Source: Escherichia coli (GTDB lineage Bacteria; Pseudomonadota; Gammaproteobacteria; Enterobacterales; Enterobacteriaceae). Taken from it: DNA of 64,000 bases. The DNA lies in NCBI RefSeq assembly GCF_013315695.1, contig NZ_CP054353.1; one strand, 5' to 3'. Made by a program: the position numbers. Positions 42,001 through 48,000 of the stretch are shown piece by piece (within the stretch, counting starts at the first letter, position 1; the number at the start of each line of letters is the position of its first letter).

Positions 42001-45000
42001 CAGCCACTCTACTGGAGACGCCGGAAGCTCGTTGCCGAAGCGGCGTTCCACCGCTCCCAGCATGACGTCCTGTACTGTTTCACTGTCGAAGCCGCCCGTA
42101 GTCACCGCCCAGTGCAGTGCCTCACGGTCACAGCAGTCCAGCGCGAACGTGACTCGCAGTTTTTCTCCGTTATCACAGCGGAACTCGAACCCGTCAGAGC
42201 ACCATCGCTGATTGCTTTCTTTCACGGCCACTTTGCCAGTATGTGCCCGTTTCGATGGCGGTACAGCGGTTTTTCGCTCAAGCAACAGCGCATTCTGGCG
42301 CATGATCCGGTAAACACGTTTGGCATTGATCGCAGGCATACCATCAAGTTCGGCCTGTCTGCGAAGCAGCGCCCATACCCGACGATAACCATACGTGGGC
42401 AGCTCTCCGATAACATGGTGTATACGGAGAAGCACATCCGTATCATCTGAGTGACGGCTGCGGCGACCATCTTTCCAGTCATCGGTTCGTCTGAGAATGA
42501 CGTGCAACTGCGCACGCGACACCCGGAGACAACGGCTGACTAAGCTTACTCCCCATCCCCGGGCAATAAGGGCGCGTGCGCTATCCACTTTTTTAGACCT
42601 GATTTGTTTCTGAGTATCGGTAAAAGTGCGGCTTATAAGCTATTCTGAAACATGGCAAGTGAATCTGGGCGGTATAATTCCGGCAAATGTCATCTGTATT
42701 TAAAGGACGTGTGAGTATGAAATTTCTGGAATGTGCTGTCCGGGATGTGATTTATGGGACCAATGTCCGTATTGTCAAACCGGTCAACATTTATGAATGT
42801 GAACTCAGGGACAACGTGTTTGTCGGCCCCTTCGTTGAGATACAGAAAGGCTGTGTCATTGGTAGTGGAAGTCGAATACAGTCGCATACGTTTATTTGTG
42901 AGAACGTAACACTGGGAGAGAACTGCTTCATTGGTCATAACGTGACGTTCGCCAACGATCTGTTTCGTTCAGGAGCACCAGATCCGTCACCGGATAACTG
43001 GATCAGCATTATCCTGGGGGGATTCGGTTACTGTTGGCAGTAGAGCCATTATTCTGTCTCCGTATATATGCAGCGGAGCTGTTATCGGTGCGGGGGCAGT
43101 TGTAGTAAAACCGATTGAGAACAAAGGCATTTATGCAGGAAACCCGGCAAGACTGATCAGAATATTATGAAATCGGGATAGGAGCTGATCTCACGATCAG
43201 CTTCCTCCCACATAGTCAAAATTGCTGGTAGGACTCGACTTATTTAATTGTGTAAACAGGGCCTCTCAGCGAAAGACCCTTATGCATCACCTGACGTTAA
43301 AAGTCACTACACCCAAGATGACGTTCAATAGCACCATGCGATTCAATGTAAGCCCGGGCCGTCTGTTCCAGTACACCAGACTCAGCGTTGTATGTGTTAG
43401 CTGCATCAAATACCAACGACAACACTTCAGGATACACAACCAGATGTGTAATGGAGTTATCTTCACCCAATACTTTTCCCCACGCCTGCTCAATCAGATT
43501 TCTTAGAACCACCACCTCACGACTCTTACACCAGACATCGTTATTAAGTAGCAACACCATAAGATAAGGAGTGGTATCGTTAGCCACAGCTTCCCTACTC
43601 CAGAGATAATATAAAGGGGGGGGCTCAACAGATTTATCTTTACGTCTCTTGCACTGCAAATATTCAGAAATGAGTCTATGCAGTTCACCAGTAAAATCGG
43701 CCATCAGAGAGGGAATGGTCTTATTAATACCCTGCCCTAGTATTAATTTAAATTGTAATAATTTAATTTCAGGATGTGTAGCTGCAGCCCGATACAGAGT
43801 TGCAAGGACACACTTTTGCCAGAGGGCGTTACAGGAAAGCTTAACATTTGATTCTGTATACATAATAAATCACCTTACAGTTACAACAGGTCAAAAACCG
43901 CTGTAGCCAGAGTTACGCTGGCCTGATGCTTTAGTATCGGGCTTCGTCAGATAATCCAGACGTGCCAATAAGCGCTGATACTGCTCAGGAAAATCAGGAT
44001 CATGAATATCCAGGATGTAACGTCCATTAGCAGGGAAATGAACAATGCAGCCCCCTGGATTAACTATGCAGAAATCGTCCTGAGGCACTGATAAATGTAA
44101 GCGTGCAGCAAGAACCGTATTGACGGGGATGTGTTATTCAGTCGGCAGTGCTACGCGCCAGGGGAGCAGTTCGCCGACCCGGTTTATCGGCCAGTCGGCT
44201 ATGACGTCAAGGACATAGCGGAGGTAGCTTTCTGGCTCCACTCCGTTCAGTTTGCACGTCCCGATCAGGCTGTACAGCAGCGCTCCCCGCTCTCCTCCAT
44301 GATCCGAACCGAAGAACAGGTAGTTTTTGCGGCCCAGACTGACCATCCGCAACGCATTTTCAGCGATGTTATTGTCCGCCTCAGCCCAGCCATCATCTGC
44401 ATAGTACGTCAGCGCCGGCCACTGGTTCAGGGCGTATGCGAACGCTTTCGCCAGTTCTGAGTGTCGCGACAGGGTTTTCATCTTTTCACGCAGCCAGCTT
44501 TCCAGGGATTTCAGCAGCGGTTTCGTTTTCAACTGACGTTCGGCAAGGCGCTGCTCCGCCGTCATTCCCCTTATCTCTGCCTCGATGGCGTACAGTTCGC
44601 CGATCCGTTTCAGCGCTTCCTCCGTCAGGGCTGACGGGGTGCGAACGTGCACATCGTGGATTTTACGGCGGGCGTGAGCCCAACAGGCGGCTTCCGTTAT
44701 CCGGCCATCCCGGTACAGCTCGTTGAACCCGGCGTATGCATCCGCCTGCAGTACACCACTGAACCCCGCAAGATGGGTCTGCGGATGGATGCCTTTTCTG
44801 TCCGGGCTGTAAGCGAACCACACCGCCGGCGCCAGCGTTGACCCGGCGTTACGGTCGTCACGAACGTAGGTCCATAACCGCCCGGTCTTCGTTTTCTTAT
44901 TGCCTGGCAACAGCACCGGGACAGGCGTGTCATCAGCATGGAGCTTACCGTCAGTCAGCACATAGCCATGAAGCGCCTCCTCCAGCGGAGACAGCTGCCG

Positions 45001-48000
45001 GCAGCATGCATCCACCCAGCCCGACAGCAGTGAACGGCTCAGCTCCACACCTTGCCGGCCGTATATTTCTGACTGGCGATACAGCGGGGTGTGCTCTGCA
45101 TACTTCGAGGTCAGCACGCGGGCCAGCAGCCCCGGTCCGGCGATACCCCGCTCGATGGGCCGTGAAGGCGCGGGGGCCTGCACGATGGCATCGCACTGAG
45201 TACAGGCATGCTTTTCACGTACAGTCCGGATAACCCGGAAGGCGCTGCGCATCAGCTCCAGCTGTTCGGCGGCATCCTCACCCAGATAGCTCAGCGAGCC
45301 TCCACATTCCGGGCAGCATGACGCTGCCGGCAGCAGCCGTTTTTCATCGCGGGGGAGTGATTCGGGGAACGGTTTGCGGGTGCGGGTTTGACGCAGCGGG
45401 CGCTGCACGGCCGGGTCGTCAACCCGACCGGTAAGGGTATCACTTTCTTTCTGAAGTGCCTTCAGGTCAGCTTCCATCTGTGCGATACGACGGGAGACTT
45501 TTTCGGAGCAGCTGCCGACGTTCATCAGGCGCAGCTTATCCAGCTGTGCCTGCAGATGGTCTATTTCGCGTTCACGCTCGTTCAGCTTTTCCAGCAGGGC
45601 ACGGTTCAGCGCCTCCTGTTCGGCAAGGAGACGTTTCAGTGCATTGATATCGTCAGGAAGTGAGCTGCTCATACCGGGTATATTACCAGGCTCATTCAGC
45701 GTCGACCAGGATAAAGAGGCTTACAACATAGTCAGGGACGTAAGCAGTCTTTTAGGCTGCCGCCAGTCGATACCTTCCAGCAGCATCGCCAGCTGTGCCG
45801 GTGTGAGGAACACTTTGCCATCCCGGGCTGACGGCCAGGCGAAGCGGCCGCGCTCCAGCCGTTTGGTCAGCAGACACAGTCCATCGCCGGTAGACCAGAG
45901 GAGCTTTACCTGACTGCCATTACGCCCACGGAAGATAAAAACGTGACCTGACATCGGATCGTCTTTCAGCGTCGTCTGCACCTTTGCCGCCAGGCCGTTG
46001 AAGCCGTTTCTCATATCGGTGATGCCAGCGACCAGCCAGATCTTTGTCCCTGATGGTAATGGGATCAACGTTTGAGCTCCCGTATCAGCAGGTTCAGGAT
46101 ATTTTCGCTGATGGCACCATTCAGACGGAGTGATCCGTGCCGGAACGTCACTTCACAGCTGATATTGAGTGATTCAGGTGTCGCAGCAGCTACAGGTTGT
46201 GACCGGGGGGAGGTTGTAGGGACAACATCTTCGGCATCAAGTGTTATCGGGAGCAGCTCAGGCACGTTGTTTTCTGTTGTTGAAGGAGGACGTAGTTTTC
46301 CTTCGCGCCAGTACTGGCGCCACTTGAACAGCAAATTATCGTTGATCCCATGCTCACGAGCGAGTTGCGCTACGGAGATCTCTGGTCGATGCGAGAGTTC
46401 AACCATTTTGATTTTGAACTCAACGGGATAATTAGGGCTTTTTTTACGCACTGCGGTTAATGATTTCATGGATAGCGTCCACCATATTTGGTGTCCACTA
46501 TTCTCTCAGGAATTTCAGGATCTGCCAGACGGTGCTGAGACGACGCTTACTGATAAATACGGAGAGGACTCTCGCGTGTGGTTGGTTGACACCACAGTGC
46601 GGATTCGGCGAATCCGCGATCACGGTGCGATTTCGTCCCACAGTACACAATCAATACCCCGGGTTTTATTCAGGTAAGCAGGACTGCGGATATCCGGTGT
46701 CGCGCCGTTGTGTCACGAACGGGGCAGGTGCGAAACACCGGATAAAATGCAGGTTGCGATACCTCTGAACGCCCTGCGCAGAGCGGCGATTTTGGATTAA
46801 GTACTCGCACCTCCGCAGTCCTCAAACAAGTCTGGCTGGTAGCTGTAAACAGACTTCGTACATACCGCTCTGCAATAAATCCCCGTAGCACAGGCCTCAC
46901 AGAACTTCTTCCCATGAAAAAACTGCTCACACATCACACAATGCCACTCCAGCACGACCGGTAATGGTGATAAAAACATCGCCATATCCTCAATGTAAGG
47001 GTGGGACTTTTCCGGATTCAGCACCACACAGTCCGCCTTCTGTTGCTCGCTCAGGGCATGTAAATCGTGCTCAAACCATGCCCCCTGAGCATCTGTCTGC
47101 AGAATCAACCGGCCATGACAGGAAAGGCAGAAACAATGCCGGATATTTCTGCTGAGCGCAGAGTCGGCACTGATAATGTGCTCACCCGGCGTGATCCCCA
47201 GCCCCGTTTTTATACCGTTCATTCTGCTACCCCCTCCTCACTGAAGCGCCCGGTCTGGCAGTGTGTGCAGTACCGCTCCCCATAATAATCGTGGTGACAT
47301 TGTCTGCAGTGCCAGCTGGCTTTACGCACCACGGGTAAGGCATCCGGGACGAATTGCTGCAGACGTTTAATCAACCGTATTTCTCTGCGTTCCGGCCTGA
47401 CATAAGGACATTGCTGCGCGTGCTCCGTCAGCCCGTCGTCAGTGTGTTCAAACCAGGGCCGTTCGGTGTCGTATTGCGGGTGGTATCTGAGTGCACTGCC
47501 GCAAAGGTGGCAGGTGTAGTGGGCATAAGGAGCAGTCTGTGCGGTACGGGCACCGGTCAGACGTCCGTTGCCATCAAGTGCGAGAAAAGATTTTGCGTAC
47601 ATAGTATATGTTCCTCTGCGCCAGACGACACGCAGGCAACAGCCGTCCCGGTACGGGCAGCGTGGTCAGGTGTGAATGGCGGTTTTCAGTTCAGTCTCAG
47701 AAGGGAAAATCAGTGTGGTCGCTGTGAACACGTCATCACACTAAGGTCAGATAAGTCGTCTGTCGGGCTCAGCCACGACTGCAGCCAAAGTTGCGCTCAC
47801 CGGTGCCGTAAGCTTTGGTACTCTCCTTCGCCAGATAGTCAGCACGCTCCAGCACCTGCTGAAAGCCGGTGTCATCATCGCGTTCCAGCCACACCGCCGG
47901 CCTGACCGGAAAATGTGCCAGCGTGTCATAACGTCCGGCATCCACTCCCAGGGCACTGCACCACGCCTGTTTAATCATCCCGGCCAGTGATCCCGGAGCG

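What the first reader, a model, noticed from the sequence alone, without database searches (positions are those of the whole stretch)
44089..46558. Intact IS66-family element with 8-bp duplication, inserted into a YfjJ-like gene
Unlike most IS copies here, this element has perfect TGATAAAT direct repeats, three intact ORFs and intact termini, indicating a recent simple transposition. The C-terminal fragment of a YfjJ-family gene ends 8 bp from its boundary. It may still be mobile.
Basis: seen in the sequence. Interest (0 to 1): 0.3.

Follow-up and report, generated by a model that had tools for sequence, protein, structure and literature searches.

The report
Intact ISEc22 insertion sequence copy
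This is an ordinary, already catalogued jumping gene (insertion sequence ISEc22, IS66 family) that landed fairly recently in a leftover gene fragment inside a virulence island of a human E. coli strain; it is intact, but nothing about it is unusual.

Summary
Window 44097-46550 is a complete 2454-bp ISEc22 (IS66 family). It has tnpA, tnpB and tnpC intact on the minus strand and GTAAGCGT... termini. Perfect 8-bp TGATAAAT repeats lie at 44089-44096 and 46551-46558.

The uninterrupted site, with one TGATAAAT, is contiguous in 527 of 5426 complete E. coli genomes. Only two genomes carry this insertion: MSB1_4I (Australia) and AF3 (UK). The window is a near-identical relative of MSB1_4I.

One correction: the target was not a working YfjJ gene. 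At the empty site it is already an 80-codon C-terminal remnant, and no N-terminal homology lies to the right.

MSB1_4I has exactly two ISEc22 copies, 100% identical and inverted, about 53 kb apart. The second copy sits in a phosphoethanolamine-transferase gene with its own repeat, GAATCAGC. Many strains share that copy, so it is the likely donor.

"Recent" means lineage-level, because the insertion predates the MSB1_4I/AF3 split. Mobility is plausible but untested, and this lineage's TnpC carries a private R49L change.

Within each genome the two copies share a private SNP. That suggests gene conversion or collapse of the repeat during assembly. The element is known and of low interest.

The parts
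44089..44096 (.). Left copy of the 8-bp target-site duplication, TGATAAAT
   Evidence: A single copy is present at the empty site.
44097..46550 (-). Complete ISEc22 (IS66 family), 2454 bp, with genes on the minus strand
   Evidence: The best hit covers all 2454 bp at 100% identity, the next at 99.8-99.9%. 853 E. coli records have a best match of 99% or more, annotated as ISEc22 family. The length matches the published 2454 bp.
44097..44118 (.). Terminal inverted repeat at the tnpC-proximal end, GTAAGCGTGCAGCAAGAACCGT
   Evidence: 8/8 outermost bases and 15/22 overall match the other end. Identical in all 7 copies aligned.
44134..45672 (-). tnpC, a DDE transposase of 512 aa. It carries leucine-zipper, zinc-finger, DDE_Tnp_IS66 and IS66_C domains, and a private R49L change (A at 45527).
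   Evidence: PF03050 positions 1-283 of 284, E=1.5e-106; NF033517, 466 bits.
45721..46068 (-). tnpB, the IS66 accessory protein of 115 aa. Its TTG start overlaps the tnpA TGA stop (TTGA).
   Evidence: PF05717, E=1.6e-38; NF033819.
46065..46469 (-). tnpA, the helix-turn-helix accessory protein of 134 aa
   Evidence: HTH_Tnp_1; NF047595, 82.8 bits against a cutoff of 74.
46529..46550 (.). Terminal inverted repeat at the tnpA-proximal end (reverse complement GTAAGCGTCGTCTCAGCACCGT)
46551..46558 (.). Right copy of the 8-bp target-site duplication, TGATAAAT
43891..44088 (-). Target: a 65-codon YagK/YfjJ C-terminal remnant ORF. It is 80 codons at the empty site, and the IS removed its first ~15 codons.
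   Evidence: (PF11726 profile positions 119-167 of 170).

Best explanation
A complete copy of the known insertion sequence ISEc22 (IS66 family) transposed by a simple insertion into the 5' edge of a pre-existing YagK/YfjJ gene remnant. The site lies in the backbone of a pheV-type uropathogenic E. coli pathogenicity island carrying pap, iha, sat, iuc/iutA and Ag43.

Shown here: the element's boundaries, the 8-bp duplication of a single target octamer, intact tnpA, tnpB and tnpC, and a second identical copy about 53 kb away with its own duplication.

Inferred from family knowledge: the DDE transposase TnpC, helped by the HTH protein TnpA and the accessory protein TnpB, binds the GTAAGCGT... ends. 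It joins them to target DNA cut with an 8-bp stagger, and repair of the stagger gives the TGATAAAT repeats.

The probable donor is the older copy inside the phosphoethanolamine-transferase gene of the same island, which many strains share. The insertion happened in the common ancestor of MSB1_4I, AF3 and the window's genome. The element is structurally competent to move again, but that was not tested.
For: Boundaries, inverted repeats and duplication. Domain content and full-length matches. Identity to ISEc22 copies annotated in RefSeq. Published ISEc22 length of 2454 bp, IS66 family, 8-bp direct repeat. IS66 tnpABC organisation and 8-bp duplication.

Empty site with one octamer. Insertion present in only 2 of 5426 genomes. 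Second copy 2454/2454 identical, inverted, with its own repeat GAATCAGC. Exactly two copies in the MSB1_4I chromosome.

The ept-site copy is shared by many strains. Both copies in MSB1_4I and AF3 share a clade-specific base at alignment column 904. One transposition-junction read for ISEc22 was recorded in culture of K. pneumoniae.
Against: There is no direct evidence of activity of this copy. TnpC here carries R49L, which is private to this lineage. AF3 has the ancestral R at the same two sites, so R49L probably arose after the insertion, and the L49 protein has never been seen to transpose.

The donor assignment is an inference. A plasmid-borne or lost copy cannot be excluded, although the best plasmid copy is only 99.7% identical. 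No sigma-70 consensus promoter was picked up by the simple scan, which is uninformative. The 100% identity of the two copies may partly reflect how repeats are assembled.
Confidence: 0.95

Rival explanations
1. The element is intact in sequence but is in practice a dormant copy. The private R49L change in the TnpC leucine-zipper region, or host or element regulation, keeps it from moving, so 'may still be mobile' is wrong.
For: R49L is found only in this lineage among 20,395 records. It postdates the insertion, since AF3 has R at both sites. MSB1_4I has only two copies. ISEc22 gave only 1 transposition read and 0 circle junctions in a deep mobilome survey.
Against: All three ORFs and both ends are intact and otherwise identical to widespread copies. 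The change lies outside the DDE domain.
Confidence: 0.3
2. The IS-bearing allele entered this lineage by homologous recombination with DNA from another strain, rather than by a transposition event within the lineage.
For: Pathogenicity-island backbones recombine frequently. The island module occurs in many variants.
Against: No other genome of 5426 carries the insertion. The flanks are near-identical to empty-site genomes. The copy is identical to the resident ept-site copy, including clade-specific bases.
Confidence: 0.07
3. The two inverted ISEc22 copies form a composite transposon that moved the ~53-kb virulence block as one unit.
For: Two identical copies bracket pap, iha, sat and iuc/iutA.
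Against: Each copy has its own matching 8-bp duplication, TGATAAAT and GAATCAGC. The ept-site copy exists alone in many strains. The window copy lies in backbone DNA that is contiguous in strains lacking the block.
Confidence: 0.02
4. The octamers are chance repeats and not a target duplication.
For: TGATAAAT is AT-rich and expected about once per strand in the window.
Against: Both copies abut the IS ends exactly. The empty site has one copy in all 40 listed genomes.
Confidence: 0.01

Closest known systems
ISEc22 (ISfinder name; IS66 family), as annotated by NCBI PGAP in E. coli and reported in K. pneumoniae BAA-2146
   Same: Length of 2454 bp, 8-bp duplication, tnpA-tnpB-tnpC order, and 99.1-100% nucleotide identity to copies annotated as ISEc22 family on chromosomes and plasmids.
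   Different: Only a private SNP giving TnpC R49L and the particular insertion site. The ISfinder reference sequence itself could not be consulted.
IS66 / IS679 (prototype IS66-family elements; Machida 1984, Han 2001, Gourbeyre 2010, cited and from own knowledge)
   Same: Three-gene organisation, a tnpB start overlapping the tnpA stop, 8-bp duplication, ends beginning GTAAGCG, and a TnpC with a DDE domain and a CWAHARR motif.
   Different: A different sequence lineage. In E. coli records the related ISEc8 and ISEc23 are only 80-90% identical.
ISEc22 copy in the phosphoethanolamine-transferase gene of PAI-pheV-type islands (e.g. EC1, MS 21-1)
   Same: Same element in the same island type. In MSB1_4I it is 2454/2454 identical to the window copy.
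   Different: Different site and duplication (GAATCAGC), opposite orientation, and widely shared among strains, hence older.

Membership tests
IS66 family | TnpC transposase with the IS66-type DDE domain (plus zinc-finger and leucine-zipper regions) | tested here: met
   PF03050 positions 1-283 of 284, E=1.5e-106. PF13005, PF13007 and PF13817 all score above their cutoffs. NF033517 scores 466 bits against a cutoff of 180. The candidate catalytic motifs ADDT (246), QADAY (309) and NNIAEN (434), and CWAHARR (330), are present. Their assignment as the catalytic residues is from memory.
IS66 family | Accessory genes tnpA (HTH) and tnpB upstream of tnpC, with tnpA and tnpB overlapping | tested here: met
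   tnpA matches PF01527 and NF047595. tnpB matches PF05717 and NF033819. The overlap is TTGA.
IS66 family | 8-bp target-site duplication | tested here: met
   TGATAAAT occurs twice at the insertion and once at the empty site. The second copy has GAATCAGC twice. The literature value is 8 bp.
IS66 family | Imperfect terminal inverted repeats beginning 5'-GTAAGCG | tested here: met
   GTAAGCGT at both ends, 15/22 overall. The family consensus is recalled from own knowledge.
IS66 family | Transposition requires TnpA, TnpB and TnpC (shown for IS679) | not testable with these tools
   This needs a genetic assay. Han et al. 2001 is not held in the library.
ISEc22 (specific element) | At least ~95% nucleotide identity over the full length to the reference ISEc22, 2454 bp | tested here: inconclusive
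   The ISfinder reference is unavailable. Indirect support: 99.1-100% identity over all 2454 bp to many copies that PGAP names ISEc22 family, and the same length as published.

The most novel reading that the evidence does not exclude
The two inverted ISEc22 copies, 53 kb apart, are being homogenised by gene conversion. MSB1_4I has a private base (A at 45527, TnpC R49L) in both copies. Its sister AF3 has a different private base (A at 45376) in both of its copies, although both genomes inherited the same two insertions. If this is real and not an assembly artefact, it is a clean natural example of concerted evolution between dispersed IS copies on a very short timescale. It would also mean that the pair is recombinationally active and could invert the pap-iha-sat-iuc virulence block.
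Probability: 0.35. Interest if true: 0.2.

Novelty: already known. Interest (0 to 1): 0.08.

Why it matters
It matters little beyond bookkeeping. The insertion is a useful clonal marker for the MSB1_4I/AF3 lineage. It shows that ISEc22 has moved within a pheV-type virulence island in the recent past. The pair of identical inverted copies bracketing about 53 kb of virulence genes is a potential substrate for inversion. The insertion did not destroy a functional gene.

Tried and rejected
(1) One search listed many genomes whose match seemed to start exactly at the IS end and run into the right flank, which hinted at a shared right junction or a hotspot. Inspection of strain 4588 showed ISEc22 in hha, about 1 kb from the module, with the pieces joined by the tool's place-joining rule. 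It is not the same junction.

(2) I looked for an empty site in a strain carrying the same full island plus the ept-site copy. The EC1 stretch that was fetched held only core genes and the capsule locus. In CFT073 this part of the backbone is replaced by another IS66-family element abutting a truncated zinc-ribbon gene. The empty-site evidence therefore comes from strains with a shorter island, such as 2016C-3878.

(3) The composite-transposon reading was rejected because each copy has its own duplication.

(4) Inversion between the two copies was rejected because the duplications are not swapped. The logic follows.

(5) The simple promoter scan found nothing in or around the element.

(6) PADLOC gave no defence-system hits for the neighbouring YagK/YfjJ, zinc-ribbon and Gp2-family proteins, so there is no sign that a defence locus was hit.

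(7) Han et al. 2001 (PMC95320) is not held. Several fetched loci were not visible to the Python sandbox, so DNA alignment was used instead.
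Full report
**Observation**

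TGATAAAT occupies 44089-44096 and 46551-46558. Between the two copies lies a 2454-bp element that begins GTAAGCGTGCAG (44097) and ends GACGACGCTTAC (46550).

The two ends are inverted repeats, identical over the outermost 8 bases and at 15 of 22 positions. The octamer is expected about once per strand in the window and occurs three times on the + strand. Two of those three are the flanks.

On the minus strand there are three open frames:
- tnpA, 46065-46469, 134 aa.
- tnpB, 45721-46068, 115 aa. Its TTG start overlaps the tnpA TGA stop.
- tnpC, 44134-45672, 512 aa.

**What it is**

Pfam gives tnpC a full-length DDE_Tnp_IS66 match (positions 1-283 of 284, E=1.5e-106), plus the IS66 zinc-finger, leucine-zipper and C-terminal modules. 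It assigns tnpB to TnpB_IS66 and tnpA to HTH_Tnp_1. NCBIfam agrees: NF033517, NF033819 and NF047595 all score above their cutoffs.

Against 5426 complete E. coli genomes, the best hit covers all 2454 bp at 100% identity and the next ones at 99.8-99.9%. 853 records have a best match of 99% or more. RefSeq annotates these as "IS66-like element ISEc22 family transposase" with TnpA and TnpB. On plasmids the best full-length copies are 99.1-99.7% identical; IS66-related matches of any identity occur on plasmids of Escherichia, Klebsiella, Salmonella and other genera.

The literature lists ISEc22 as 2454 bp, IS66 family, with 8-bp direct repeats. The family is described as tnpABC with an 8-bp duplication. 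The ISfinder entry itself could not be consulted.

**Source and setting**

The window matches the chromosome of E. coli MSB1_4I (NZ_LR898874.1; human rectal swab, Australia) in reverse orientation. It is not byte-identical: there are 12 mismatches and 2 one-base indels over 30 kb. The window therefore comes from the same clone or a very close relative.

The surroundings are a pheV-type uropathogenic island with pap, iha, sat, iucABCD/iutA and Ag43, plus many degraded IS copies. It is laid out like the CFT073 pheV island.

**The refutation test**

I joined 600 bp of left flank, including one TGATAAAT, to 600 bp of right flank and searched the complete genomes. 527 genomes hold the joined sequence as one place. 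All 40 listed rows are single ungapped 1200-bp alignments at 99.8%.

A base-level alignment with strain 2016C-3878 shows one octamer exactly where the IS sits in the window. The repeats are therefore a true target-site duplication. By contrast, the IS-bearing configuration occurs in only two of the 5426 genomes: MSB1_4I and isolate AF3 (NZ_OZ547117.1; blood culture, UK).

**The target**

The 65-codon ORF at 43891-44088 matches only profile positions 119-167 of the 170-position YagK/YfjJ C-terminal domain.

At the empty site the ORF is 80 codons long (WP_157780491.1) and is preceded by an in-frame stop. The IS entered at about codons 13-15 of that ORF.

A full-length YfjJ-type protein from the same window (47769-48392) aligns to the remnant only over its residues 158-205, and it finds nothing to the right of the insertion point. 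Only about 240 bp separate the site from the next gene, a zinc-ribbon protein. The IS therefore hit a remnant that had already lost its N-terminal two-thirds. No functional gene was destroyed.

The neighbours give no hits in PADLOC. They are the YagK/YfjJ ORFs, two DUF7828/zinc-ribbon proteins and a Gp2-family protein.

**Copies elsewhere**

An internal 401-bp probe finds exactly two places in the MSB1_4I chromosome. The second copy (record 927655-930108) is 2454/2454 identical to the window copy and lies about 52.8 kb away in inverted orientation. It interrupts a phosphoethanolamine-transferase gene and has its own duplication, GAATCAGC.

Because each copy keeps its own matching pair of octamers, two alternatives are excluded: movement as a composite transposon, and inversion by recombination between the copies. 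The logic follows.

The ept-site copy is present at the same position in many other strains, including EC1 and MS 21-1. It is therefore older and is the most economical donor. Both copies in MSB1_4I and AF3 share a clade-specific base at alignment column 904 that the ept-site copies of other strains lack.

**Age and activity**

The insertion is shared by MSB1_4I, AF3 and the window's genome, so it predates their divergence. It is a lineage marker rather than an event of the last few generations. Its rarity and the near-zero divergence of its flanks still make it evolutionarily recent.

All structural requirements for mobility are present. The only published hint of activity for ISEc22 that I found is one transposition-junction read, and no circle junctions, in a K. 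pneumoniae mobilome experiment.

The window copy and both MSB1_4I copies carry A at 45527, which gives R49L in the TnpC leucine-zipper region. This allele is 100% matched in no other record of 20,395. AF3 has the ancestral base at both sites, so the change most likely arose after the insertion. Its effect on activity is unknown.

**A side observation**

Within each genome the two copies are identical. Between the genomes they differ at two positions. A at 45527 is in both MSB1_4I copies, and A at 45376 (synonymous) is in both AF3 copies.

Both genomes inherited the same two insertions. The pattern therefore implies one of two things. Either gene conversion has homogenised the copies independently in each lineage, or repeat collapse during hybrid assembly has written one consensus into both copies. 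Reads were not available, so I cannot decide between them.

**Mechanism**

Shown here: the boundaries, the duplication of a single target octamer, the intact genes, and a resident identical copy.

Inferred from the IS66 family literature (Han 2001 and Gourbeyre 2010, as cited, and own knowledge): TnpC is the DDE transposase, and TnpA (HTH) and TnpB are required accessory proteins. The ends beginning GTAAGCG are the recognition sites. An 8-bp staggered cut in the target is repaired to give the duplication.

Whether IS66-family elements move by copy-out or by cut-out is not settled. Retention of the donor copy fits either route.

**Verdict**

The finding is real and correctly read, but ordinary. 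It is a catalogued IS, already annotated at this very site in RefSeq, inserted in a gene remnant. Interest is low and the element is already known.

Noticed in passing
window 45527 and 45376; L004 12656-15109; L007; L008: Each of two sister genomes has a different private SNP present in both of its ISEc22 copies. MSB1_4I has A at 45527 (TnpC R49L) and AF3 has A at 45376 (synonymous). This suggests gene conversion between the inverted copies, or repeat collapse during assembly.
   Followed up: partly
window 30501-60500 vs L001: The window is not identical to the MSB1_4I RefSeq record: 12 mismatches and 2 one-base indels. A G-run indel at 43616 leaves the 188-codon YagK/YfjJ ORF (43297-43863) open in the window but broken in the record. 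A SNP cluster lies at 59373-59646 in the Ag43 region.
   Followed up: partly
window 31165-31215: A solo 51-bp fragment is 98% identical to the tnpA-proximal end of ISEc22 (IS positions 2404-2454). It lies between iutA and a small hypothetical gene and is probably the scar of an older IS66-family copy. A weaker 52-bp match lies at 18917-18968.
   Followed up: no
window ~49066-49245 and upstream to ~49630: hha is a pseudogene here. It has a 14-bp deletion relative to strain 2016C-3878, and a 189-bp insertion/deletion difference lies a little further along.
   Followed up: partly
L003 5902-8238; L012 30191-33853: IS66-family elements recur at other points of the same island backbone module. ISEc22 sits in hha in strain 4588, and a different IS66-family element abuts a truncated zinc-ribbon gene in CFT073.
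   Followed up: no
window 46797-48392: A conserved backbone module lies on the minus strand: a Gp2/YagK-YfjJ family protein (also a weak match to the REP_ORF2-G2P replication-protein family) followed by two paralogous DUF7828 + zinc-ribbon proteins. Function is unknown and there are no PADLOC hits.
   Followed up: no
L001 7156-8880 (window ~37656-39380): RefSeq annotates iucA, the aerobactin synthase gene, as a pseudogene with an internal stop in MSB1_4I. If real, the aerobactin locus is non-functional in this strain.
   Followed up: no
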